Source of the DNA: a phage
Assembly: GCA_036253035.1 (NCBI GenBank)
Contig: GCA_036253035.1_4123.1
Length of the DNA stretch: 64,000 bases
Strand: one strand, 5' to 3'
Made by a program: the position numbers and the translations under genes. A model generated the notes under the pieces. It did not search any database, was not told the origin of the DNA, and saw nothing but the letters and a program-made list of their open reading frames with translations. Positions 6,135 to 35,856 of the stretch are shown one piece after another. Numbering within the stretch: the stretch's first letter is position 1; each line of letters begins with the position of its first letter.

Positions 6135-6554
6135 TCATTTACAGTTTTCTATAACTATTGCACGTTTTAGTATTTTACTTTCATAAACATACTTAAGATG
6201 ACCTTCTTCACGAATACGATTGAACACATATCCTAGTTTATCTTTTAGTACTGAAGCGGTATCAATGTCAAGATTAACTTCAACCCCTCCTGTTAATTTA
6301 ACTTTATATGTAAAGCTAAAAGCATCACCAGATTCAACCAATGGGACTACTTGTTCATACGTATTCAACATAACTCGTTCATCATTAACTAAATTATATA
6401 TTACAATATCACAAGTTTTTACCCCAATTTCCTCTAAGGTAGGAGCATTGTCTACTATAACATCTTTTACTGTATTAGCAACCTGTTTAGCATCTGCTGC
6501 ATATACATTAAAACTAAGAAGTACTAAAATAATACTTAAAAAAATCTTTTTCAT
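6135..6554 (-). CDS. secreted protein (signal peptide)
   Basis: 139 aa; MKKIFLSIILVLLSFNVYA|AD. Confidence 0.6.
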   Translation of the reverse strand: MKKIFLSIILVLLSFNVYAADAKQVANTVKDVIVDNAPTLEEIGVKTCDIVIYNLVNDERVMLNTYEQVVPLVESGDAFSFTYKVKLTGGVEVNLDIDTASVLKDKLGYVFNRIREEGHLKYVYESKILKRAIVIENCK

Positions 6555-6563
6555 TATATATCC

Positions 6564-6887
6564 TTATTTTATTTTACACGTCATATCGGGTTGTGCTGGT
6601 TTATTATTTTTAAAAGGATTAGGTTTTTTATCTTTCTTTTTATCTTTTAATGGTTTTTTGTCTTCTTTTTTATCTTTGTCTTTTTTATTGGTATCAGATT
6701 CAGTTGGAGTATTACATTGTGCTGGTGATGGGTTTGTTGGGTTACAGCTATTGTCTGGTGGGAGTTTTACTTCTTTACAATTGTAAAATAGTAAACTTTT
6801 ATTTGTGGTTAAATTATGAAAACGATAATTTATTTCATTATTATAATAAATTTTTTTAGTACTTTCAATGTCATTACACATTGCCAC
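6564..6887 (-). CDS. hypothetical Lys/Asp-rich low-complexity protein
   Basis: 107 aa, KDKDKKEDKKP repeats. Confidence 0.4.
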   Translation of the reverse strand: MAMCNDIESTKKIYYNNEINYRFHNLTTNKSLLFYNCKEVKLPPDNSCNPTNPSPAQCNTPTESDTNKKDKDKKEDKKPLKDKKKDKKPNPFKNNKPAQPDMTCKIK

Positions 6888-7213: not shown

Positions 7214-8767
7214 TCATTTACCGTATTTGCTCATGATGTCCTTTTCCCAATGAGTTACGTTACCGTTATCGTAATCTTTAAAGGAATTATCAAGAGTAGT
7301 TAATGCATATTCGTATGCTTCAGGTGATTCAATGTCAACATCATCAGCACCATTTACTAAATCAGTCCATGCTTTTTGTAGTTTACGAGCATTTTTACCA
7401 ACATTACTTTTAATCCAACTAATGTTTTTGTTGATACTCTTATTATCAGCACCAGCTTTTTTACCAATATCGGATATCCACATCATTAGCTTTTGGAGTT
7501 CATGAATGGAGTTGTCGTTCATTTCACGATCTTTAGCCAATTCTGCTTCCATGCCATCAGTATCAGTACCATCTTTAGAACCTACATCAATTCCATGTTT
7601 AGCTAATAGTTTACCAAGTTCAAAGAATGCTGCCTCAGCAGGGAAGTCATAACCTTTGTCTTTGTAGTTGTTCCATGCACTATCAAACTCATCTACAAAT
7701 CGGTTGGCATAATCTGGATTGTCCACGAGAGCTTTGTACACTGCCATTGCATGTTCAAATCCTTCTTTGTCAGAACCAAACTCTCCCATTTCTGGACGAT
7801 GAATGTAACCATCCATATCAACAGTATCAGGTAAATCATCATGAGATGTTTCAGCATCTTTCTGGTCAACTGCACCTTCTTCATCATCACGCATCAGATA
7901 ACCATCTCGTGTAACCTTCTCACCGTGATCAGCTTCATACTTTTTCATAGTATTGAATGCAGCATCCATTGCAGTTACAAAACGACTCTTTTCACCTTGT
8001 ACATAAGATTTAAGTGCATCGTTAACTGCATCAGATACTAATTTAATCTTATCGTCTTTACCTTCCAGACGGTTTTCTAACTTAGCTAGTACATTCTTAA
8101 CTTGTTGAGCATTAGCACGGTCTTCTTTACCAATACTATCAAATGTTTTAAGTACGCTTTCAAGACTTACTTCCTCTTGTGCAGGCACATCACCTTGTTG
8201 CGTACCTTCAAGTGCACGCATTATAGTACTGAATACTTCAGTTGGTTCAGTACTGGTATTTCCACTCATTGCATCAAGTACAGCTTGTGCTTTGACTTTT
8301 AATTCTTCTTTAGGTACAGATTGCAATTCTTTCACAATACCTTGGATAAGTTGTGGTTTATTAGCAAAAATCTTACCTAACTTATCAGACAATTCTTTGA
8401 CAGGGTTAACCGCCTTTGGTGCTTCTTGTTTTGGTTCTTCTTTCGCAGGAGAAGACTTTTCTTTTTCTTCACGTTCCATATCAGCTAGGCGTTGTTTTTG
8501 TGTAGCATTAAGAAGTCCCAATGAATTAACATAACGTAGCTTTTCTAGCTCAGTCATGTTCTCAGTACTCTTAACTTCACCTGCTTCTGCGTTTGCTTTA
8601 CCAGCTAGACCAGTTCCTTGGTTACGTGATCCACGTGAACCTTGACCTGCTTGATAACTATTTGGTCGGCGGTTGCGTTCACTCCATTTATCCGAGTGAC
8701 CAGCCATGTTACCACCATTTTTATCAGTAAAATTACTTGGCATTTGATTTCTCTCCATAGATTTCAT
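7214..8767 (-). CDS. large hydrophilic protein, unknown function
   Basis: 517 aa, acidic/coiled; shares KYLxSLGLL motif with 9014..9397; TATAAATA-like motif about 25 nt upstream. Confidence 0.7.
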   Translation of the reverse strand: MKSMERNQMPSNFTDKNGGNMAGHSDKWSERNRRPNSYQAGQGSRGSRNQGTGLAGKANAEAGEVKSTENMTELEKLRYVNSLGLLNATQKQRLADMEREEKEKSSPAKEEPKQEAPKAVNPVKELSDKLGKIFANKPQLIQGIVKELQSVPKEELKVKAQAVLDAMSGNTSTEPTEVFSTIMRALEGTQQGDVPAQEEVSLESVLKTFDSIGKEDRANAQQVKNVLAKLENRLEGKDDKIKLVSDAVNDALKSYVQGEKSRFVTAMDAAFNTMKKYEADHGEKVTRDGYLMRDDEEGAVDQKDAETSHDDLPDTVDMDGYIHRPEMGEFGSDKEGFEHAMAVYKALVDNPDYANRFVDEFDSAWNNYKDKGYDFPAEAAFFELGKLLAKHGIDVGSKDGTDTDGMEAELAKDREMNDNSIHELQKLMMWISDIGKKAGADNKSINKNISWIKSNVGKNARKLQKAWTDLVNGADDVDIESPEAYEYALTTLDNSFKDYDNGNVTHWEKDIMSKYGK

Positions 8768-8798
8768 TTTTTTCTCTATGTCTATATTTATAGTATAA

Positions 8799-9013: not shown

Positions 9014-9397
9014 TTACTTCTTGAACTTATGTTTTTCACTTTCGATTGCATTCACGATTTCATCATGAATTTTACGAAGATTGTGAGTTTTCTTGAGAGA
9101 ATCATGCAATGCACGGAATGCAGAGTGTACTGTTGCTTTAAAGTGCTCTTTAGGAGTTACTTTAAGTTTCTCGATAATATCACGTACATAGATTGGGTGA
9201 TCCTCAAACACACGATTAAGCTCATGACCTAGTGATTCTAGGCTAAATGCTTTTTCACGGGATGGACGATCATGTGCAAGACTTTGGTCCGGTTTTAGAA
9301 GACCTAGTGAATCTAGATACTTGTGCTTATGTGCATTGTCTAGACCAGAAATATCAACATCATGTGATGGATCTTTCTTATTCCATTTATCAACCAT
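9014..9397 (-). CDS. hypothetical protein sharing N-terminal motif with 517-aa protein
   Basis: 127 aa; KYLDSLGLLKPDQ. Confidence 0.6.
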   Translation of the reverse strand: MVDKWNKKDPSHDVDISGLDNAHKHKYLDSLGLLKPDQSLAHDRPSREKAFSLESLGHELNRVFEDHPIYVRDIIEKLKVTPKEHFKATVHSAFRALHDSLKKTHNLRKIHDEIVNAIESEKHKFKK

Positions 9398-9475
9398 TTT
9401 TATAACTCCTATAAGAGATAAATTTTACTATAATATTTATAGTTCCGTTGTCATTTATATCGAATGACATAAAAC

Positions 9476-18643: not shown

Positions 18644-18818
18644 TGATCACATCAAGTACTTTATCCAGCTTTTTACCAATGCTTTCCTTTGGTTTCTCAC
18701 CATTCTGGAATACATTAGAACTGCAATAGTCAGGACGTGTATTAGGAAACTTCTCCTGCATCCAACTATGACCATACACACCCAGCATAATACCAACAAT
18801 AAGAATGATAATTTGCAT
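18636..18818 (-). CDS. small membrane protein
   Basis: 60 aa; N-terminal TM helix. Confidence 0.45.
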   Translation of the reverse strand: MQIIILIVGIMLGVYGHSWMQEKFPNTRPDYCSSNVFQNGEKPKESIGKKLDKVLDVINE

Positions 18819-18895
18819 GATAAACCTCTTAATTAATGTTTTATTTTAGAACTCAATATAGAAAGTATACTCTAGTACTTCTTATATGTCAACTA

Positions 18896-19105
18896 TTATT
18901 CTTTCTCACCAACAAACAGTTTAACTTTTGTATTACTGTTATAACACCACATCTGTTCTTTGTTAATAGACATCCAGATATTTTTATTGACCTGTTCGTA
19001 GGTACTATCACGAACAGAAATACATTGATTCATGGAATTCATTGGAGTGATTTGTACACCGCTTTGCATGGAAAGAGCTACTACTAAAAAGATTACTGAA
19101 TTCAT
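18896..19105 (-). CDS. small secreted protein
   Basis: 69 aa; signal-peptide-like N-terminus. Confidence 0.5.
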   Translation of the reverse strand: MNSVIFLVVALSMQSGVQITPMNSMNQCISVRDSTYEQVNKNIWMSINKEQMWCYNSNTKVKLFVGEKE

Positions 19106-19693
19106 TGGATATTCCTTAATGGTTAATCATCCATCTCTTCGAGATGTCTGTTCGCTTCTAATACTACGTATTCTACGCGAATGATCAATAACTGTCAAGG
19201 ACTTTTAATATTGACGGGATTTGAGGAAGGGATTTTTCTTCCCCCCACAAGGAGGGAAATTTGACGCTGATGGTATCAGAGCTATTGCATTGAAGATTAC
19301 TCATAACGAGTGCGAAAGCGGGTCATCCTGTTTCTCTCTACTTCAGTTTCATATGACGGTCTACACTTTTAAACATAGTGTATCTTCATTAAGTATCTAT
19401 GCAATCAAATACTTAATGTGAGTACTCAAATTTTGGACGCAACTTTCCTGTACAAAATTCGATAACTCTCCCTTAGATAATTCGTAAGGTGTTATCCTTA
19501 TATGTCTATCAAGGAACCACCAGCTATCCTAACGTGGTTCTTTATACAGCCGCATTGCCGTGAGGGGTTCAAACTATGCCCACATCTAACGGGTTTCTTT
19601 TGCTGTTCGCACTGTCGGACTGCTCAACTGCCCTCTACGTTTTCGAGTGGATCAGGTACATGAATATCATGCCAACAGAATTGTACAAGATAA
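19106..19693 (-). ncRNA. candidate structured non-coding RNA (unclassified)
   Basis: about 590 bp with no credible ORF in a tightly packed genome, locally GC-richer, multiple stem-loops, extended -10 promoter upstream and terminator of sigma gene further upstream. Confidence 0.3.
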
Positions 19694-19704
19694 TTATATC
19701 ACAA
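19694..19704 (-). promoter_or_regulatory. extended -10 promoter element (TGTGATATAAT)
   Basis: same 11-mer recurs at 39745 and 63615 upstream of genes. Confidence 0.4.
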
Positions 19705-19723
19705 ACTTTTACTTCATCCCATA

Positions 19724-19755
19724 AAAAAAGGTTGGCATAAGCCAACCTTTTTTCT
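19724..19755. terminator. bidirectional rho-independent terminator
   Basis: aaaaaaaGGTTGGCataaGCCAACCtttttt. Confidence 0.8.
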
Positions 19756-20721
19756 TTAGAAATCTTCGTATTCGTACCCTTTTGCAAGTACTAGCTTCTT
19801 AAGCTTTTGCATAGCTTCACTGTACTTTCGATGTATTGATGAACGGGATTTAACATATTTTCCATTATCATCAACAAAACCATTATCAGCAATCTCACGA
19901 AGCGTTTCAGGTTCATATTCACCTAGACCATGAACACGATGGATAATCTCACGTTCTTTAGTACTCAATTCGTTAGTCAGTTCATTGATAGCATAACGTA
20001 AAGGTGCACGAATACTATCAACATTGAGGTTAAAATCAGAAGCAGGTGAATGAATAATGTCACCTAGTGTACCATCGGTAACACCGTCTAATGGTGCATC
20101 CAGAGAAGTGTATTCGCTTTGAAATAACAAACAGTTATTAACATGCTGAATCTCAATCCCAGTACCCTCTGAGATTATTTCAGGAGTTGGGCGAACACCA
20201 TGTTTACGCATATATTCCTGGCAGAATCTTTTTACTTTGATCTTATGAACACTCATATAACGTGGGAAGTGTACCATATAGTTAGCGTCAGAACTTTCGT
20301 TATAAACTGTCATGTAAATACTAGAAGAAGCATAGGTAATGAACTTAACATTCTTATTAAGATCAAAGGTTTTTAGTGCTCTCATGAACCCCTCAACACC
20401 ATATGAAATCTTATCTTCAAATGGGATATAACAAGTACATTTACTTGCTACATCAATAATAAGTCCATAATTGTAACGAACTAACAGTTCAGTGTTTTTC
20501 TTTACATTGATACCAGCTTGAATATCACGAATTAGATCTTCATTGGAAACATTTGGTGGTCGCTTAAGTGTAATATTATATTTGAAACTGCTTTGTACTT
20601 TACCTTCATTTTCATCTTTATCTTCAACGAAATCTAAGGCTTCTAGTGTGTTGACTTCTTCATTAGCAAAACATTCATCCAGAACTTCTTCGGCAATTGT
20701 ATTTAAATCAAGCTTTTTCAC
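19756..20721 (-). CDS. RNA polymerase sigma factor, sigma-70 family
   Basis: 321 aa, GTG start with AGGAGA RBS; region 2 EGFMRALKTFDLNKNVKFITYA and region 4-like TLREIAD..SRSSIHRKYSEAMQKLKK. Confidence 0.7.
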   Translation of the reverse strand: MKKLDLNTIAEEVLDECFANEEVNTLEALDFVEDKDENEGKVQSSFKYNITLKRPPNVSNEDLIRDIQAGINVKKNTELLVRYNYGLIIDVASKCTCYIPFEDKISYGVEGFMRALKTFDLNKNVKFITYASSSIYMTVYNESSDANYMVHFPRYMSVHKIKVKRFCQEYMRKHGVRPTPEIISEGTGIEIQHVNNCLLFQSEYTSLDAPLDGVTDGTLGDIIHSPASDFNLNVDSIRAPLRYAINELTNELSTKEREIIHRVHGLGEYEPETLREIADNGFVDDNGKYVKSRSSIHRKYSEAMQKLKKLVLAKGYEYEDF

Positions 20722-23678: not shown

Positions 23679-24135
23679 ACTTTTCCCTCAAATATTTTTC
23701 TATTAATCTAATTTGTGTTGGTGGTAAGATAAAATAATCGTACATAGATTTACTACCATGTATCGAACAACCTACACTAATACTATAATCATATGGATAT
23801 AAGTATATTGGGTCTTGTATATCAGGTATGAAAACTATTCTTGATATATTACCATTTCCTATTCTTACTTGGACGTTATCATTATTATTAATATAATTTC
23901 TTATACAGTACTCAATTATACCATTTACTTTAGAATCATAACCATAATTTTTATATTCAGGAAAAATGAAATAGCGTTCATGGTATAGATATGAGCATAG
24001 TAATGCTGGGAAAAAATTCCAAAAACCTTCATGCTTTGCAATTGTTTGTGCATATTTAAAATGATTAGCATTACTAAAAATATTATACAGCACAAAATAC
24101 ACAAATGGACTAACCAACAACACTATTGTTAACAT
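23659..24135 (-). CDS. hypothetical protein with N-terminal TM helix
   Basis: minus ORF 158 aa. Confidence 0.55.
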   Translation of the reverse strand: MLTIVLLVSPFVYFVLYNIFSNANHFKYAQTIAKHEGFWNFFPALLCSYLYHERYFIFPEYKNYGYDSKVNGIIEYCIRNYINNNDNVQVRIGNGNISRIVFIPDIQDPIYLYPYDYSISVGCSIHGSKSMYDYFILPPTQIRLIEKYLREKFDNKDS

Positions 24136-24596
24136 CAGAAGCCTCTGTATTTTTCATACACTTCAACGCATTCCATGATTTTGTCATCGTCCATCATATC
24201 ATAGCCTTGTAGAAATTCTTCTTTATCAACCTTCCCTGCCATCATATCTGTGTCAGAAATTCTGGAGTCATAGAAGGAATACATATCTTTATAGTACTGG
24301 TTTTTGTGCTGCTCAATCTTTACTTTAGCATATCCAGCACAAAATGAAGGAGATTTAACAACTTCCCATTTATGCTTCTTGATGGGTTTATCATTAGCAT
24401 ATTTTTCCCTGTATGTCTGACGATAACGTTCACGCATTTCAGGCATGTATTCGTCAGCAGTACGTTTGGGGGGAGTTTTACCAGTCCCAATAGTTTTAAT
24501 AGTTTGACGTTGTTCTTCTGCGTGTACTGGGGAAATAAAACATGATGTGCCAAACAGTACTGCTACGATAACCATAAAATTCTTAAACATAATCAA
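24135..24596 (-). CDS. secreted protein (signal peptide)
   Basis: 153 aa; MIMFKNFMVIVAVLFGTSCFISPVHA|EE. Confidence 0.6.
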   Translation of the reverse strand: MIMFKNFMVIVAVLFGTSCFISPVHAEEQRQTIKTIGTGKTPPKRTADEYMPEMRERYRQTYREKYANDKPIKKHKWEVVKSPSFCAGYAKVKIEQHKNQYYKDMYSFYDSRISDTDMMAGKVDKEEFLQGYDMMDDDKIMECVEVYEKYRGF

Positions 24597-24820
24597 ACCT
24601 CTTTTACAATAATATCGATTGATACTGGAATTGCAATTTCACTATTACATGAATACACATCAGCACAGTACTCAATATCTAGAACTTTATAATATTTCTC
24701 AAACCCACAAATGGTAAGATTCAACGTTGACCCAACTACTGGGAGTACAGGAAATGATAAGAACGCAATTTTAGAATGAAATTCTTCATTGATATCTTGA
24801 TATACAGTTGCAGTAATCAC
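24593..24820 (-). CDS. hypothetical protein
   Basis: minus ORF 75 aa. Confidence 0.5.
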   Translation of the reverse strand: MITATVYQDINEEFHSKIAFLSFPVLPVVGSTLNLTICGFEKYYKVLDIEYCADVYSCNSEIAIPVSIDIIVKEV

Positions 24821-25401
24821 AATGGTAACTCCTGTAGTGGTTTCATAATACCGAGTACTGGGTGATTTTCAATCATTGGTCGCCCTGGTACACCAGTGAG
24901 GATAACTGGGATAGAACTAATATCTTTTACATAGTTGAATCCCTCAAACGTGAACTCTTGTTTTTTCTCATTATATAATACCCATAGTATTACGTCAGCT
25001 TTTTTCTGGATATTTTTTAACTGTCTAGTACTAACACATGGCCCAAAGTCAGTCCATGATTTATACTTGATACCTTTTACTTCAATACGAAGGTTGTTTA
25101 CCTTAATATCACATTCACCGTCGCGTGCTTCATTTTGGAATGCTGGATCGATATTAAGTTTAATACCAGTATTGTTTTCAATTTCATTAAAAAGTACTAA
25201 AGATGCGTGCTCACATACCATACCAACAAAATGACTATGTGCATGATTAAAACCATATGGCGATTTACTTGCTGGAGCCAAAAGTTTATATCTTTCTGAT
25301 TTTTCAATCGCTTTTGCCATAAAAGAATCAGCTTCATCTTTATATAACTTAACAGTCATTTTTCCATTTTTCAGTACTAATCTATTATCAATAACATTCA
25401 T
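24817..25401 (-). CDS. hypothetical protein (possible PD-(D/E)xK nuclease-like motif)
   Basis: 194 aa; DGECDIKVNNLRIEVKG; assignment weak. Confidence 0.55.
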   Translation of the reverse strand: MNVIDNRLVLKNGKMTVKLYKDEADSFMAKAIEKSERYKLLAPASKSPYGFNHAHSHFVGMVCEHASLVLFNEIENNTGIKLNIDPAFQNEARDGECDIKVNNLRIEVKGIKYKSWTDFGPCVSTRQLKNIQKKADVILWVLYNEKKQEFTFEGFNYVKDISSIPVILTGVPGRPMIENHPVLGIMKPLQELPL

Positions 25402-25517
25402 AAAAACACCTCATTATTCATTCACTACATGATAACACCAAATCATACACCAGTCAAACTCATTTTTTGGATATGCATAATAAATACGTTATAATAATTA
25501 TACCAATGGAGGGATAA

Positions 25518-26672
25518 ATGTCAAGGTCAATTGCTGCGGCTGGACACTATAAGTTTGGTGAATGTGGTTATGTTGTTGATGGTGCAATCCTCAACGATGG
25601 AACTAGACTAAAAAATATTAGAATCTATCGCCAAAGAAGCCATAGATTATATGATTTAGTTGATCCAAGAACTAATATAATATATCGTAAAGTACAAATA
25701 ACAACTAAAGATAATAAAGGTTATCTATTAAATTACAATAAAACTAATGACCAACTATTAAGTGAAATTAATAAAAATTGTTTCTTTGTTCGTGGATATT
25801 CTGAAGAGCCACAAGAAACTGATACTGGATTTGTATATAAATTTATGCTACATAAAACAATTTTAGGTAGTTCACAAACCTTGTATCATATGTATACACC
25901 TGAATGTGGTATTATAGATCGTGATATAGATAATATTCTCATTTCACCAGTATTTGTTGGTAATGACTCAATTAGTGGTAAATTATTCAACACTGGTTCA
26001 GAAATTGATACTAACGGTATGGTAATAACAATCGTATTACCAGACGGGACAGAATACTTTACTACCCAATTTGTTAATGATGCATTTACAATTCCAGTTG
26101 ATGTTATCACACAATCAGGGAAAGGTACTGCTACGCTCACTTCTCCATATTATAACACTAAAGTGGTGGAATTTGATGTTCTTGAAAGTGGTGAGGATAT
26201 TGATTTTGTTACATCAGTTCTTCTATCCCAATTTGAACCTGTTTCGGAAGGTGTATTTTCTGCGGTTGTTCCATTTGATGTTCATGATCGTGGACAGTAC
26301 TTAGCACTTCAAGCATACAGTGGTGACTTATATCAAGTTGGTGTAGATCTTTCTGTAGACGCAGAAGGTAATATTACTGTGTATCAAACTGATAATTTAC
26401 CTGTTTCTTTGAGTATAATCGGAAAAACACTGCATACTACTCCTTTCCATAAAGAATATACTTTAAGTGAGTGGGTTCTCGGTGAAGACTCTATGTACTC
26501 TATCTCAGTTCCAGTAACTGAACATGGTAAAGCACTACCACAAGTTCAATTATATTCTTCAGACAATCATGTAGTTCATAGTGAAATACAAGTGGATGAA
26601 GATGATAATGTAATTCTTAAAGTAGTAGAACCGCTTGACTGCTCAGTCGTAATAGTTGGTTACAACGCATAA
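25518..26672 (+). CDS. hypothetical protein; only plus-strand gene in window
   Basis: 384 aa; strong RBS GGAGGG; upstream TAATAAATA late-promoter-like motif; followed by bidirectional terminator. Confidence 0.7.
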   Translation: MSRSIAAAGHYKFGECGYVVDGAILNDGTRLKNIRIYRQRSHRLYDLVDPRTNIIYRKVQITTKDNKGYLLNYNKTNDQLLSEINKNCFFVRGYSEEPQETDTGFVYKFMLHKTILGSSQTLYHMYTPECGIIDRDIDNILISPVFVGNDSISGKLFNTGSEIDTNGMVITIVLPDGTEYFTTQFVNDAFTIPVDVITQSGKGTATLTSPYYNTKVVEFDVLESGEDIDFVTSVLLSQFEPVSEGVFSAVVPFDVHDRGQYLALQAYSGDLYQVGVDLSVDAEGNITVYQTDNLPVSLSIIGKTLHTTPFHKEYTLSEWVLGEDSMYSISVPVTEHGKALPQVQLYSSDNHVVHSEIQVDEDDNVILKVVEPLDCSVVIVGYNA

Positions 26673-26673
26673 T

Positions 26674-26709
26674 AAAAAAAGCCACTACATTGTAGTGGCT
26701 TTAATTTTA
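26674..26709. terminator. bidirectional rho-independent terminator
   Basis: aaaaaaaGCCACTACattGTAGTGGCtttaatttt between convergent genes. Confidence 0.8.
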
Positions 26710-26714
26710 TCTAA

Positions 26715-27527
26715 TTATTTGAAATTGTCACGTAGAACTTCTTCAAGTGTTTTATCTGGATTGCTAATGGCTACATTATAAATCAATTCTTTAAATGCAG
26801 TTAGTGCCTGCTCAGTTGCTTCTGGACCAAAGTTCTCACTAATGCTTTTAAACATACTTTGTGCACGTTCTGATTTGATACAACTAGTTACAAACTTGTC
26901 AATTTCATTACGAAGCTGCTTAGTTGTCATGTCACCAATGAGCATCTCACTAATTTCTTTTGGTTCATCTGCACTTGTTCGGACATTCGTAAAACCAAAC
27001 ACATCATCACCTGAGCCAAAGCTACGTTTTTCTTTTTTAGTTTCTTTTACTGGTTCTTCTTCAACTTCTTGTTCGTATTCTTTAGTAAAGAGATGAGATA
27101 GTACATCATCAAGATTTTTAACCATACCATCAATACGAGATTCAGCATTCTTGGATACATGTTTGAATGCTTGCTCTAGTGCTTTTTCTTGAATCTGGTC
27201 ACGAACATTATTAACTACATTACGAAGTTTTTCATTACAGTTGTCTAAAATTTCTAATACTTCACCAGTTTTGATTTTTTCCAAAAGTACATCTAAATCA
27301 GATTTTACATTTTGTTTTTGACTTACTTCACCATTAAGAATTGAATTCAATTCTTTAGCACCTTCAACTGCTTCTTCATGTGTTTTAAATTCAACTGGTA
27401 CATCAACACCATCCAGTACAATATTAAGCACTTTACCATCAACGTAGGCGTAGGAGTAAGATGCTTTTTTGAAAGAAATAGTTTTGAAGAAAATGTTGCT
27501 CATATTGATATACTCCTTAGTGCCCAC
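26715..27527 (-). CDS. hypothetical acidic protein
   Basis: minus ORF 270 aa. Confidence 0.65.
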   Translation of the reverse strand: MGTKEYINMSNIFFKTISFKKASYSYAYVDGKVLNIVLDGVDVPVEFKTHEEAVEGAKELNSILNGEVSQKQNVKSDLDVLLEKIKTGEVLEILDNCNEKLRNVVNNVRDQIQEKALEQAFKHVSKNAESRIDGMVKNLDDVLSHLFTKEYEQEVEEEPVKETKKEKRSFGSGDDVFGFTNVRTSADEPKEISEMLIGDMTTKQLRNEIDKFVTSCIKSERAQSMFKSISENFGPEATEQALTAFKELIYNVAISNPDKTLEEVLRDNFK

Positions 27528-27858
27528 TAGCTGGGAAGGTTTTAAACATATAGTGACATTGTACTAAATCATTGAACTTCAATCCGAAATCTTTAGTACC
27601 CATCAGTGTGTGATAAAAATAATGCGAAATTGTATTAGTTTCAGCGTCTTTAATATAGATACCAAATTCGGTACAGCAAAACTGAACAACTTCATTATAA
27701 CTTTCTAACTTGGAAATTACAAGTACTTGATCATAAGAATTTTTATCAAATCCAATGATGTACATTTCCTCTGTTTCTGGGTGTACAATCATCCCACCGC
27801 GAGAAATAATTTTCTCGAAGTTACTGCTCAAGTACTGAATTGTTGAACTTAAGTTCAT
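27517..27858 (-). CDS. hypothetical protein
   Basis: minus ORF 113 aa. Confidence 0.55.
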   Translation of the reverse strand: MNLSSTIQYLSSNFEKIISRGGMIVHPETEEMYIIGFDKNSYDQVLVISKLESYNEVVQFCCTEFGIYIKDAETNTISHYFYHTLMGTKDFGLKFNDLVQCHYMFKTFPASGH

Positions 27859-28062
27859 TTACAACTCCTTACGTATTACTCGTCCGGTAAGATGTTCATC
27901 TGTACAGAACTTCATTATAAATGCTTTTAGATGGAAGTCTTCTAAAATTCTATATGCTTGCGTTTTCATAACGACTTCCTTCTTCTCCACATCAACAATT
28001 ATATCATGTTTCTCGTGAAGTTCCTGGATCATTTGATATGAATTCAAACTTAGTACGCTCAT
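27859..28062 (-). CDS. hypothetical protein
   Basis: track ORF 27859..28071 (TTG); ATG 28062; overlaps next gene by ~59 nt. Confidence 0.4.
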   Translation of the reverse strand: MSVLSLNSYQMIQELHEKHDIIVDVEKKEVVMKTQAYRILEDFHLKAFIMKFCTDEHLTGRVIRKEL

Positions 28063-31991: not shown

Positions 31992-32081
<90 letters not shown>

Positions 32082-32093
32082 AGAAGTAAGATA

Positions 32094-32194
<101 letters not shown>

Positions 32195-32249
32195 GCCAAG
32201 TGTCGGCATAGGTGCAGCACTACAAAGTACTTCAAGCTGTTTGGCAGTC

Positions 32250-32336
<87 letters not shown>

Positions 32337-32338
32337 TA

Positions 32339-32464
<126 letters not shown>

Positions 32465-32483
32465 GCATACTCGAAGTACCTCT

Positions 32484-32589
<106 letters not shown>

Positions 32590-32633
32590 AATTGCTTTAT
32601 AAGCTACTGAATCGGGAATCACAACCTCCCCAT

Positions 32634-33151
<518 letters not shown>

Positions 33152-33172
33152 TTATACCTCTCATTGTTTATG

Positions 33173-33244
<72 letters not shown>

Positions 33245-33248
33245 TAAT

Positions 33249-33856
<608 letters not shown>

Positions 33857-33907
33857 ATAAACCTCACTATACGTAACTTACACCATATACGTCTGATTGT
33901 GGAATTC

Positions 33908-33932
33908 ATTATATCAGTACTGAACTATTTAG

Positions 33933-33936
<4 letters not shown>
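33908..33936 (-). promoter_or_regulatory. sigma-70-type promoter (TTGACT-17-TATAAT)
   Basis: plus attata(33908-33913)..agtcaa(33931-33936). Confidence 0.6.
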
Positions 33937-34345
<409 letters not shown>

Positions 34346-34355
34346 GCTTTTTTTT

Positions 34356-34517
<162 letters not shown>

Positions 34518-34521
<4 letters not shown>

Positions 34522-34678
34522 AATCGTACCAGTAGTTCAATTAAGTACATTTCATATGCTGGATCGTTGATAAGTTTATCATACAGATGTGGCTCTGAAA
34601 TGAATTCCCAATGATACTTTAGCCATCTACCGATACCCGAATATCTAAAATTAATGTCATTCATCCATTCTTCATGTG

Positions 34679-34682
<4 letters not shown>
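34518..34682 (-). CDS. MTHEEW-family mini-protein (54 aa), copy 2
   Basis: MTHEEWMNDINFRYSGIGRW..; ATGA overlap with copy 1. Confidence 0.5.
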
Positions 34683-34843
<161 letters not shown>

Positions 34844-34866
34844 GGTTTTTAACCTTTAATTAAAAT

Positions 34867-34943
34867 TGGCCGAGGTAGAGGGACTTGAACCCCCAACCTA
34901 GAGATTAGAATTCTCTTGCACTATCCAATTGTGCTATACCCCG
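34867..34943 (-). tRNA. tRNA-Arg (anticodon UCU), CCA encoded
   Basis: acceptor CGGGGTA/TACCTCG, T-arm GGGGG-TTCAAGT-CCCTC, anticodon loop AUUCUAA. Confidence 0.8.
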
Positions 34944-34947
34944 TATT

Positions 34948-35063
<116 letters not shown>

Positions 35064-35096
35064 ATGTTATGTCCCATTATATAATGAATTAATGAT

Positions 35097-35315
35097 TTAT
35101 GCAAGTGCTTTAGATACACCGACACCAATAATTCCAGTGATATCGATATGGATATTGGCAAGTTGATTACTATCATATGGGTTTGTTTCTGTAATAACCA
35201 ATGTTGTATCATTGACTAAAACCACAGTACCTTTTACACGATAACCATGTAGTAGTACTTGAACCTCATCTTCAGGTTTTAATGATTGAATAACTTCAAA
35301 TAAAGTTGTTTCCAT
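35097..35315 (-). CDS. hypothetical protein
   Basis: track ORF 35097..35423; ATG 35315 with AAGGA RBS avoids overlap. Confidence 0.45.
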   Translation of the reverse strand: METTLFEVIQSLKPEDEVQVLLHGYRVKGTVVLVNDTTLVITETNPYDSNQLANIHIDITGIIGVGVSKALA

Positions 35316-35331
35316 TTTTTGTATTCCTTGT

Positions 35332-35514
35332 TTAGTTTTGATTATTTGACTTTCTAAATGCCAGTTCGCATATAAACCAGGGTTTTCTGGTATCCAAAAC
35401 ATATGACCTGAAAAGATTTTCATCTCTTAATATATCATAATGTACCTGACGAATGCCATTCCCAAAGCAGTCATGTTCTTTATGCTGTTTGGACATCCAT
35501 TCTTCGTGTGTCAT
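35332..35514 (-). CDS. MTHEEW-family mini-protein
   Basis: MTHEEWMSKQHKEHDCFGNGIRQVHYDIL.. Confidence 0.5.
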   Translation of the reverse strand: MTHEEWMSKQHKEHDCFGNGIRQVHYDILRDENLFRSYVLDTRKPWFICELAFRKSNNQN

Positions 35515-35515
35515 T

Positions 35516-35851
<336 letters not shown>

Positions 35852-35856
35852 TCTTA

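What the first reader, a model, noticed from the sequence alone, without database searches (positions are those of the whole stretch)
25518..26672. Solitary plus-strand gene embedded in an otherwise minus-strand region
A 384-aa ORF with a strong RBS runs opposite to every other gene in 64 kb, preceded by a TAATAAATA motif rather than a TTGACA/TATAAT promoter, and ends at a bidirectional terminator. No recognisable domain. Opposite polarity plus a different promoter type suggests a differently timed (possibly late or structural) gene or a laterally acquired insert.
Basis: seen in the sequence. Interest (0 to 1): 0.5.

Follow-up and report, generated by a model that had tools for sequence, protein, structure and literature searches.

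The report
Late virion protein gene, Ig-like domains
This is the already annotated gene for a particle protein of a 121Q-type jumbo E. coli phage, read from a T4-style late promoter on the strand opposite its neighbours; the layout is conserved across this phage group, so it is ordinary and not an acquired insert.

Summary
The ORF at 25518..26672 (+) is real. The window is an Asteriusvirus jumbo coliphage, 99.2-99.5% identical to 121Q, phAPEC6 and SHEFM2K. The ORF is 121Q gp155 = phAPEC6 gp077, annotated "virion structural protein, Ig-domain". Published mass spectrometry found it in phAPEC6 virions (10 peptides, 37.8% coverage) and its ortholog CBB_496 in CBB virions.

It is the only opposite-strand gene in about 64 kb. 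This arrangement is conserved, not acquired. All 17 orthologs sampled (cultured phages of three named genera plus unclassified phages, and uncultured contigs down to 38% identity) are solitary inverted genes, and base composition is unremarkable.

[A/G]TAAATA[C/T] sits 31-42 nt before the ATG in 16 of 17 orthologs and close by in the last (XaC1). In the 121Q structural module, 16 of 18 ATAAATA copies precede gene starts (P ~1e-24). A gp55-like late sigma factor is encoded. The bidirectional terminator is confirmed.

Structure prediction gives a conserved ~135-aa N-terminal module with no known fold relative, followed by three Ig-like domains that grow more variable towards the C-terminus. An N-module-only paralog (phAPEC6 gp347) is itself a virion protein with high peptide coverage.

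Best reading: a late-expressed, Hoc-like surface decoration or adhesion protein. Its exact position on the virion is unknown. Interest is low.

The parts
25518..26672 (+). Coding sequence of a 384-aa virion protein (= 121Q gp155, phAPEC6 gp077); the end coordinate includes the stop codon
   Evidence: ORF call. The surrounding DNA is 99.2-99.5% identical to Asteriusvirus genomes. Annotated as 'virion structural protein; Ig-domain'. phrog_10468 at E = 2e-183. Mass-spectrometry detection in phAPEC6 virions (PMC7247149).
25518..25922 (+). N-terminal conserved module (aa 1-135), the candidate virion-anchoring domain
25923..26198 (+). Ig-like beta-sandwich domain D2 (aa 136-227), CarboxypepD_reg-like
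   Evidence: AF2 pLDDT above 85. The domain type is repeated 6-20 times in large bacterial adhesin-like proteins. PF13620 hit in the ortholog P0011.
26199..26669 (+). Two tandem Ig-like beta-sandwich domains, D3 (aa 228-306) and D4 (aa 307-384)
   Evidence: AF2 pLDDT about 90-95. Foldseek hits are to Ig-domain chains such as Bap, filamin and SiiE. An internal-repeat signal appears in the comparison with GAP32_475. These are the least conserved domains (41% and 38%).
25480..25487 (+).
   Evidence: [A/G]TAAATA[C/T] is conserved 31-42 nt before the ATG in 16 of 17 orthologs, and about 38 nt before it by eye in XaC1, while flanking sequence diverges. ATAAATA is depleted in the window (10 copies against 44 expected). 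In the 121Q structural module, 16 of 18 copies lie 16-64 nt upstream of gene starts.
25468..25495 (+). Weak sigma-70-like match TGGATA-16-TATAAT overlapping the late motif; a possible secondary promoter or start-site region
   Evidence: Promoter scan, 10 of 12 matches. The TATAAT is conserved within Asteriusvirus and CBB only.
25508..25513 (+). Shine-Dalgarno sequence GGAGGG
   Evidence: Read directly from the sequence. A purine-rich SD is conserved in all orthologs.
25429..25457 (-). Divergent sigma-70 promoter TTGACT-17-TATCAT (TG-extended) for the minus-strand gp156 operon
   Evidence: Promoter scan. Its -35 element, seen as GTCAAG on the + strand, is conserved in most orthologs.
25497..25524 (-). 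Second minus-strand promoter, a perfect TTGACA-16-TATAAT with TG extension; its -35 is formed by the codons ATG-TCA-A of the + ORF
   Evidence: Promoter scan, 12 of 12 matches. Its function was not tested.
26678..26702 (.). Bidirectional intrinsic terminator shared by the convergent genes gp155 (+) and gp154 (-)
   Evidence: Terminator scan on both strands. Folding energies and z-scores. Terminators are annotated at the same place in G17 and UE-S1. Equivalent hairpins follow the stop codon in uncultured orthologs.

Best explanation
The gene encodes a late-expressed structural protein that is built into the virion of this 121Q/phAPEC6-type jumbo myophage.

Transcription (inferred): host RNA polymerase carrying the phage's gp55-like late sigma factor starts a few bases downstream of the -10-type element ATAAATAC (25480-25487). 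It reads rightward, against the flow of the surrounding early-type operons, and stops at the bidirectional hairpin at 26678-26702. The same hairpin ends the converging minus-strand transcript. Leftward sigma-70 promoters in the 116-bp intergenic region restart the neighbouring operon, so the late gene is an insulated cassette.

Protein (partly shown, partly inferred): the conserved ~135-aa N-terminal module docks the protein onto the particle. Three Ig-like beta-sandwich domains project outward as a short flexible arm of about 10-15 nm. This arm probably makes weak, accessory contacts with carbohydrates or the cell surface, as proposed for T4 Hoc and other Ig-decorated phage proteins.

Shown: gene identity, presence in virions (published mass spectrometry), conserved synteny, conserved motif, terminator, and domain architecture (predicted).
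Inferred: late timing, the anchoring role of the N-module, outward display, and adhesion. The attachment site (capsid hexamer centre, or the tail or collar) is not known.
For: Identity
- The region is 99.2-99.5% identical to Asteriusvirus genomes, and the ORF is 121Q gp155 / phAPEC6 gp077.

Presence in virions
- phAPEC6 gp077: 42.88 kDa, 10 unique peptides, 37.8% coverage in purified particles (PMC7247149).
- CBB_496, the ortholog in a different genus: 4 peptides, 17.5% coverage (PMC5259590).

Late promoter
- TATAAATA occurs 3 times against 12.2 expected, and ATAAATA 10 times against 44 expected, in the window.
- Three of the ten ATAAATA copies lie 18-37 nt upstream of virion-protein genes (gp201, gp199, gp155).
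- In the 121Q structural module, 16 of 18 copies lie 16-64 nt upstream of same-strand starts, including the major capsid protein, scaffold, protease, baseplate and tail-fibre genes. Binomial P ~1e-24.
- The core is conserved 31-42 nt before the ATG in 16 of 17 orthologs, and about 38 nt before it by eye in XaC1.
- 121Q gp591 matches the late sigma factor family phrog_234 at 8e-18.
- The same ATAAATA motif was reported upstream of structural genes in CBB and GAP32 (PMC5259590).

Architecture
- AF2 pLDDT is 80 overall and above 90 for residues ~136-384, which form three beta-sandwiches.
- Foldseek hits are to Ig-domain chains from adhesins.
- The N-module heads about 90 protein clusters with variable Big_2, Invasin_D3 and Big_1 arrays.
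- Conservation falls along the protein: N-module 58%, D2 47%, D3 41%, D4 38%.

N-module as anchor
- The paralog phAPEC6 gp347 (125 aa, N-module only, 33% identical, E = 3e-15) is a virion protein with 75.2% peptide coverage.

Unassigned densities that could correspond to it
- phAPEC6 and 121Q maps show unassigned decoration densities, including a fibre-bearing protein at each hexamer centre.
Against: - No transcript data exist for any Asteriusvirus, so late timing is inferred only from the motif.
- The element is AATAAATA, a 7-of-8 match to the T4 consensus TATAAATA. A sigma-70-like TATAAT lies 4 nt downstream, so early or dual expression is not excluded.
- No experiment localises the protein on the particle. 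Mass-spectrometry detection does not prove surface exposure.
- The paralog gp347/gp471 lacks a nearby ATAAATA.
- No binding activity has been shown for the Ig-like domains.
Confidence: 0.72

Rival explanations
1. Same protein and same late expression, but it decorates the tail, collar or neck rather than the capsid. It could be the 'decoration protein present at two levels of the tail', or the base of the hairy fibres seen on phAPEC6 and CBB.
For: The phAPEC6 tail reconstruction shows unassigned decoration proteins and fibre bases at three annular positions. CBB has tail whiskers whose genes are unassigned. Database annotators often call family members 'major tail protein'.
Against: The 'major tail protein' names come from Big_2 Ig-domain hits to siphophage tail proteins, not from the N-module. 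A 384-aa chain of four domains is far too short for the 119-nm whiskers. Neither location has direct evidence.
Confidence: 0.3
2. It is a primary receptor-binding protein that determines host range, rather than an accessory decoration.
For: The distal domains are the most variable. The fHe-Yen9-04 annotation calls family members 'possible surface protein, responsible for cell interaction'.
Against: Orthologs keep the same length and four-domain plan across phages of Escherichia, Salmonella, Erwinia, Cronobacter, Yersinia and Xanthomonas. These phages carry separate large tail-fibre genes that are also detected by mass spectrometry. No lectin, depolymerase or tip domain was found.
Confidence: 0.08
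3. The gene is expressed early or constitutively from the sigma-70-like TGGATA-16-TATAAT (25468-25495), and the ATAAATA upstream is coincidental.
For: A 10-of-12 match on the + strand. The TATAAT is conserved within Asteriusvirus and CBB.
Against: The region yields as many such matches as shuffled sequence does (15 against 15.3). The TATAAT is not conserved in EJP2, Hallingskeid, 7t3, GAP32, XbC2, XaC1 or the uncultured orthologs, whereas the TAAATA core is conserved in all of them. The ATAAATA position matches that of bona fide structural genes.
Confidence: 0.12
4. It is a laterally acquired insert (moron), which would explain the inverted polarity.
For: Its solitary opposite orientation, with its own promoter and terminator.
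Against: The position, orientation, flanking gene families, promoter core and terminator are the same in 17 of 17 orthologous loci, down to 38% protein identity. GC is 31-37% against 29-36% in the flanks. A paralog elsewhere in the genome shows the same solitary inverted layout, so this is a habit of the lineage.
Confidence: 0.02

Closest known systems
121Q gp155 / phAPEC6 gp077 / CBB_496 / GAP32_475 (phrog_10468, 'virion structural protein')
   Same: It is the same gene. The surrounding DNA is 99.2-99.5% identical to 121Q and phAPEC6 (the closest database protein cluster is 99% identical), and the protein is 38% identical over its full length to GAP32_475. Position and orientation are the same, and the product is detected in virions by mass spectrometry.
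   Different: Nothing of substance. The published records give no function beyond 'structural protein, Ig-domain'.
T4 Hoc (highly immunogenic outer capsid protein)
   Same: A late-gene product of similar size (Hoc is 376 aa, from my own knowledge). Both have four domains, three of them Ig-like plus one particle-binding module, and both are accessory surface proteins. 121Q and phAPEC6 capsids carry a protein at each hexamer centre, where Hoc sits on T4.
   Different: No sequence similarity was detected: there were no Hoc hits in Pfam, PHROGs or PDB searches. The candidate anchor is N-terminal here and C-terminal in Hoc. The location on the virion is unproven.
T5 pb10 head decoration protein
   Same: The order of parts matches: an N-terminal particle-binding domain followed by C-terminal Ig-like domain(s) (the pb10 architecture is from my own knowledge).
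Ig-like domains on phage structural proteins (Fraser et al. 2006; Big_2, I-set and FN3 classes)
   Same: Beta-sandwich domains appended to a virion protein, swapped and varied in number between relatives.
   Different: The domains of this ortholog group fall below the Pfam thresholds. D2 is closest to CarboxypepD_reg-like stalk repeats of bacterial adhesins.
T4-type late promoters (TATAAATA, read by gp55)
   Same: A single -10-type A/T-rich octamer about 30 nt before the start codon, with no conserved -35 element. It is depleted elsewhere in the genome, precedes the structural genes, and a gp55-like sigma factor is encoded.
   Different: The first base differs (AATAAATA). The lineage consensus is [A/G]TAAATA[C/T]. 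The CBB authors reported finding no homologs of the T4 co-activators gp33 and gp45 in that phage; I did not search for them.
121Q gp471 / phAPEC6 gp347 / RaK2 gp39 (phrog_33171), the paralog
   Same: It shares the N-terminal module (33% identity, E = 3e-15). It is also a virion protein and also a solitary opposite-strand gene.
   Different: It has zero or one Ig-like domain, lies at a different locus (between a ClpP-like protease gene and the dCMP deaminase gene), and has no ATAAATA close to its start.

Membership tests
phrog_10468 / 121Q gp155 ortholog group | Full-length sequence similarity | tested here: met
   phrog_10468 at E = 2e-183 over residues 1-383. 38-99% identity over at least 96% of the length to 14 clusters. 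38% identity to GAP32_475 at E = 2e-81.
phrog_10468 / 121Q gp155 ortholog group | Conserved genomic position: divergent from a ~190-aa gene and convergent with a virion-protein gene | tested here: met
   17 of 17 loci.
phrog_10468 / 121Q gp155 ortholog group | Product present in purified virions | not testable with these tools
   Published mass spectrometry for phAPEC6 gp077 and CBB_496. Not re-testable here.
T4 Hoc family | Sequence homology to Hoc | tested here: not met
   No Hoc family hit in Pfam or PHROGs. No PDB hit with the single sequence or the profile.
T4 Hoc family | Tandem Ig-like domains | tested here: met
   Three beta-sandwich domains in the AF2 model, with Foldseek hits to Ig-domain chains.
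T4 Hoc family | C-terminal capsid-binding domain | tested here: not met
   The C-terminus is an Ig-like domain. The conserved non-Ig module is N-terminal.
T4 Hoc family | One copy bound at the centre of each capsid hexamer | not testable with these tools
   The 10-A phAPEC6 map shows an unassigned protein there. No assignment is possible.
T5 pb10-like decoration proteins | N-terminal domain with the pb10 capsid-binding fold | tested here: not met
T4-type late promoter | TATAAATA-like element at about -10, some 20-45 nt before the start codon | tested here: met
   AATAAATA at 25479-25486, a 7-of-8 match. 31 nt lie between the end of ATAAATA and the ATG. Structural genes of 121Q show the same spacing range.
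T4-type late promoter | Element conserved in orthologs while the flanking sequence drifts | tested here: met
   The [A/G]TAAATA[C/T] core is present upstream in 17 of 17 orthologs.
T4-type late promoter | A gp55-type late sigma factor is encoded by the phage | tested here: met
   121Q gp591: phrog_12791 at 2.7e-154 and phrog_234 'late sigma transcription factor' at 8.4e-18. It lies outside the window.
T4-type late promoter | Transcript appears late and depends on the late sigma factor | not testable with these tools
   No transcriptome of an Asteriusvirus was found in the paper library.
Intrinsic (rho-independent) bidirectional terminator | GC-containing hairpin followed by a U-tract on both strands | tested here: met
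   11-bp stem with 5 G-C pairs. A7 upstream and T-rich sequence downstream. dG -16.6 and -18.2 kcal/mol.

The most novel reading that the evidence does not exclude
The ~125-135-aa N-terminal module may be an undescribed particle-docking fold specific to Rak2-like jumbo phages. It occurs alone in phAPEC6 gp347 / 121Q gp471, fused to three Ig-like domains here, and fused to long Ig arrays of up to about 1,800 aa in uncultured relatives. On this reading it binds the capsid (for example at the hexamer centres that remain unassigned in the phAPEC6 and 121Q maps). Paralogs would then share or compete for the same sites, giving these phages a modular, swappable surface coat.
Probability: 0.25. Interest if true: 0.45.

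Novelty: already known. Interest (0 to 1): 0.17.

Why it matters
It matters little as a discovery. The gene is annotated, has been found in virions by proteomics in two genera, and its reversed polarity with a late promoter is the normal T4-superfamily way of separating late from early transcription.

The modest added value is threefold:
1. A clean comparative footprint shows that [A/G]TAAATA[C/T] is the late promoter core in Rak2-like jumbo phages, and that it has been purged from early regions.
2. The N-terminal module is recognised as a family-specific, structurally unclassified candidate anchor that carries interchangeable Ig-domain arrays.
3. Widespread 'major tail protein' labels on this family are probably misannotations that come from Big_2 domain hits.

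These points could help assign the still unidentified decoration densities on 121Q and phAPEC6 particles.

Tried and rejected
- The word-indexed homology search returned nothing with the N-module alone and only 4 proteins with the N-module profile. The exhaustive HMM search was what revealed the family.
- PDB sequence searches with the protein, the ortholog profile and the N-module profile gave nothing significant.
- I first took RaK2 gp39 ('major tail protein') for the ortholog, which raised the idea that the N-module is tail-tube-like. I rejected both ideas. gp39 is syntenic with the paralog 121Q gp471, and the 'tail' label traces to its Big_2 domain.
- The phiKp24 cryo-EM paper was checked for decoration proteins. 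That phage has a different, 597-aa capsid protein and none are reported.
- The Sharanji and 121Q capsid papers hold no proteomic or promoter data on this gene.
- Rfam found only tRNAs in the window.
- Other + strand ORFs in the window were checked and dismissed as antisense artefacts or as lying in non-coding stretches.

Full report
**1. The observation**

The ORF is exactly as described: 25518..26672 on the + strand, ATG start, 384 aa. GGAGGG lies at 25508-25513, four bases before the ATG, and TAATAAATA lies at 25478-25486. An 11-bp perfect hairpin at 26678-26702 has an A-run on one side and a T-run on the other. The terminator scan scores it on both strands. It folds at -16.6 and -18.2 kcal/mol, with z-scores of -6.3 and -5.4 against shuffles.

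A mechanical ORF map gives 12 plus-strand ORFs of at least 60 aa. The only long one other than this gene (6220-6786) runs antisense across two minus-strand genes and has a low-complexity translation. The others are short or lie in a stretch with no convincing ORF.

Two sub-claims need qualification. First, a TATAAT hexamer sits at 25490-25495 with a weak -35 (TGGATA, 10 of 12 matches), so a sigma-70-like match is not absent. Second, 'no recognisable domain' is true for Pfam, where the best hit has E = 0.018 and falls below the cut-off. It is not true for phage-specific libraries or for fold prediction.

**2. What the window is and what the gene is**

Positions 24000-28000 are 99.2-99.5% identical to about 20 jumbo coliphages of the genus Asteriusvirus, including SHEFM2K, phAPEC6, 121Q and PBECO4. 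These genomes are about 350 kb.

The ORF is 121Q gp155, annotated 'virion structural protein; structural protein, Ig-domain'. It is also phAPEC6 gp077. It matches phrog_10468 'virion structural protein' at 2e-183. In the 121Q record from 45.5 to 111 kb, gp155 is the only feature on its strand.

**3. Published evidence on the product**

Wagemans et al. 2020 (PMC7247149) list gp077 in the phAPEC6 structural proteome: 42.88 kDa, 10 unique peptides, 37.8% coverage. The convergent neighbour gp078c (= 121Q gp154, window 26715..27527) is listed too.

Buttimer et al. 2017 (PMC5259590) list the CBB ortholog CBB_496 with 4 peptides and 17.5% coverage.

The same paper and Hua et al. 2017 describe T = 28 capsids carrying decoration proteins that have not been assigned to genes. 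These include a fibre-bearing protein at the centre of each hexamer, and hairy fibres on the head and tail.

**4. Acquired insert or conserved feature?**

I collected 17 orthologous loci:
- Asteriusvirus: 121Q, UE-S1, Ec-M-J, Turkey5, A4, EJP2
- Mimasvirus: GAP32, CBB, XbC2
- Eneladusvirus: fHe-Yen9-04
- Unclassified: Hallingskeid, 7t3, XaC1
- Three uncultured contigs whose proteins are 38-42% identical to the query

In every locus the 373-389-aa gene is the only one on its strand. In the loci inspected, it diverges from a gene of about 180-195 aa and converges on either a gene matching the neighbouring virion protein or, in some lineages, a methyltransferase gene inserted in front of it.

GC content inside the gene is 31-37% against 29-36% in the flanks. 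Only the GC skew changes sign, as expected for a gene on the other strand. Lateral acquisition is therefore rejected. The inverted polarity is ancestral to this phage group.

**5. The promoter**

The octamer TATAAATA occurs 3 times in the window against 12.2 expected. ATAAATA occurs 10 times against 44 expected. No shuffle gave so few. Three of the ten ATAAATA copies lie 18-37 nt upstream of genes whose products are annotated or shown to be virion proteins: gp201 at 8785, gp199 at 9434, and this gene at 25480.

As an independent test I took the 48.5-kb structural module of 121Q. Sixteen of its 18 ATAAATA copies lie 16-64 nt upstream of an annotated same-strand start. These starts include the major capsid protein, scaffold, protease, baseplate hub and wedge, tail fibre, several virion proteins and endonuclease VII. 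Only 2.3% of positions qualify as such upstream windows, giving a binomial P of about 1e-24.

An alignment-free footprint of the region upstream of the gene shows [A/G]TAAATA[C/T] 31-42 nt before the ATG in 16 of the 17 orthologs, while the surrounding sequence diverges. In XaC1 the core (GTAAATAC) sits about 38 nt upstream by eye, and a second ATAAATA copy lies at -63.

121Q encodes a gp55-like late sigma factor, gp591 (phrog_234 at 8.4e-18). The CBB authors had already proposed ATAAATA as a T4-like late promoter in CBB and GAP32.

No transcript data exist for this genus.

The TATAAT four bases downstream is conserved only in Asteriusvirus and CBB. The region also yields no more sigma-70-like matches than shuffled sequence does. 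I therefore rate a sigma-70 start as a minor alternative.

**6. The neighbourhood as a transcription unit**

The 116-bp intergenic region also holds two leftward sigma-70 promoters:
- TTGACT-17-TATCAT at 25457..25429. Its -35 appears as a conserved GTCAAG on the + strand in most orthologs.
- A perfect TTGACA-16-TATAAT at 25524..25497. Its -35 is formed by the first codons of the + ORF.

With the bidirectional terminator at the other end, the late gene is an insulated cassette set against the early-type operons. Equivalent hairpins follow the stop codon in the uncultured orthologs. Terminators are annotated at the same place in G17 and UE-S1.

**7. The protein**

An AlphaFold2 model built from 14 orthologs has a mean pLDDT of 80. 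Residues ~136-384 form three beta-sandwich domains with pLDDT mostly above 90. Foldseek against the PDB returns only chains of Ig-like domains, such as the Bap C region, filamin, SiiE and fibronectin.

An exhaustive HMM search of 1.8 billion representative proteins shows three patterns:
- Residues 1-~122 form a module found at the N-terminus of about 90 clusters ranging from 100 to 1859 aa.
- The middle domain type is repeated 6-20 times in large adhesin-like bacterial proteins.
- The last two domains also occur as a pair.

Pfam scans of family members show arrays of Big_2, Invasin_D3 or Big_1 domains after the N-module. Relatives of domain D2 carry pAdhesive_17, CarboxypepD_reg and LPXTG features.

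Among cultured phages, both tblastn searches with the module (one with this protein's N-terminus, one with a divergent family member) hit 70 records. Nearly all are ~310-390-kb genomes of this jumbo-phage group; one is a 46.8-kb Klebsiella record. There are one to three copies per genome.

Within the ortholog group, mean pairwise identity falls from 58% in the N-module to 47%, 41% and 38% in D2, D3 and D4.

**8. The paralog argument**

121Q gp471 = phAPEC6 gp347 is a 125-aa protein consisting of the N-module alone. It is 33% identical to residues 3-124 of this protein (E = 3e-15) and defines phrog_33171.

It too is a solitary opposite-strand gene, lying between a ClpP-like protease gene and the dCMP deaminase gene. 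In the phAPEC6 proteome it has 8 peptides and 75.2% coverage, among the highest values in the table.

The module without any Ig domain is thus a component of the particle. This is the best available evidence that the module is the part that docks onto the virion.

RaK2 gp39 ('major tail protein', 212 aa, N-module plus one Big_2 domain) is the ortholog of this paralog, not of gp155.

**9. Mechanism and comparison**

The most economical reading is a late-expressed accessory surface protein. A conserved N-terminal anchor carries a short arm of three Ig-like domains that becomes more variable towards its tip.

This works like T4 Hoc or T5 pb10 and fits the general pattern of Ig-like domains on phage particles. 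It is not a sequence or fold member of either family, and the anchor is at the opposite end of the chain from Hoc's.

I cannot decide whether it sits on capsid hexamers or on the tail or collar. I rate a receptor-binding role as unlikely, because the four-domain plan is constant across phages of six host genera and separate large fibre genes exist.

**10. Verdict**

The feature is real, but it is a known, conserved, proteomically verified structural gene. Its odd polarity and promoter are the normal late-gene signature of this T4-related lineage.

Novelty: already known. Interest: low.

The residual point of interest is the structurally unclassified N-terminal module and its possible match to the unassigned decoration densities on 121Q and phAPEC6.

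Noticed in passing
window 8785-8792 (-) and 9434-9441 (-): Two of the only three exact TATAAATA octamers in 64 kb sit 18 and 37 nt upstream of the genes for the virion proteins 121Q gp201 (7214..8767) and gp199 (9014..9397). These are late-promoter islands on the same strand as the early-type genes.
   Followed up: partly
window, whole: ATAAATA is strongly depleted (10 copies against 44 expected), as is TATAAATA (3 against 12.2). This suggests selection against stray late promoters in this early-type region.
   Followed up: partly
window 25497-25524 (-): A perfect TG-extended sigma-70 promoter (TTGACA-16-TATAAT) faces leftward. Its -35 hexamer is made of the first codons (ATG TCA A) of the + strand ORF. 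It lies in tandem with a second leftward promoter at 25429-25457. Transcription from it would cross the late promoter.
   Followed up: no
window 18650-19755: A stretch of about 1.1 kb downstream of the sigma factor gene has no convincing ORF on either strand and no Rfam hit. The corresponding gap in 121Q is about 0.7 kb. The window is about 0.9 kb longer than 121Q somewhere between 6.1 and 25.5 kb.
   Followed up: no
window 19756-20721 (-): A sigma-70-family sigma factor gene (regions 2, 3 and 4; = 121Q gp167) lies in the early-type region. It is distinct from the gp55-like late sigma factor (121Q gp591), which is encoded outside the window. The CBB authors link a second promoter class with a TGAAACG -35 to this group.
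   Followed up: partly
window 26715-27527 (-): The convergent neighbour (121Q gp154 = phAPEC6 gp078c, phrog_14991) is also a virion protein by mass spectrometry. Yet it lies on the early-type strand with no TAAATA motif in the 120 nt upstream, overlapping the end of the preceding gene. How it is expressed late, if it is, is unclear.
   Followed up: partly
L020 4870-5001 (121Q gp472): The small ORF just upstream of the paralog gp471 translates to MGEPIAGQDQFPFTLGGYLVDGVNIKGTT... It is a truncated remnant of a third N-module gene, resembling the ~640-aa uncultured family members. phAPEC6 has different sequence at this spot.
   Followed up: no
L007 4001-4639 (RaK2 gp39), and CBB, GAP32, K64-1, XbC2 and XaC1 family members: Family members are widely annotated 'major tail protein' or even 'major capsid protein'. 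The PHROG hits behind these names fall on the Big_2 Ig-like domains, so the labels are probably misannotations.
   Followed up: partly
window 32002-35829 (-): A cluster of seven tRNA genes, including tRNA-Ser with the unusual anticodon ACT. ATAAATA copies lie 17 nt upstream of tRNA-Gly (35846-35852) and about 70 nt upstream of tRNA-Thr (32147-32153). Rfam at its gathering score finds six of the seven and misses tRNA-Gly.
   Followed up: no
window 25518-26669, residues C16 and C130: Two cysteines in the N-module (GECGY and TPEC) are invariant in the 14 gp155-type orthologs but not in the wider N-module family. They could form a lineage-specific disulfide or metal site.
   Followed up: no
window 6220-6786 (+): A 188-aa ORF antisense to two signal-peptide or low-complexity minus-strand genes. 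It is almost certainly not a gene, but it is unusually long for a 33% GC genome.
   Followed up: partly
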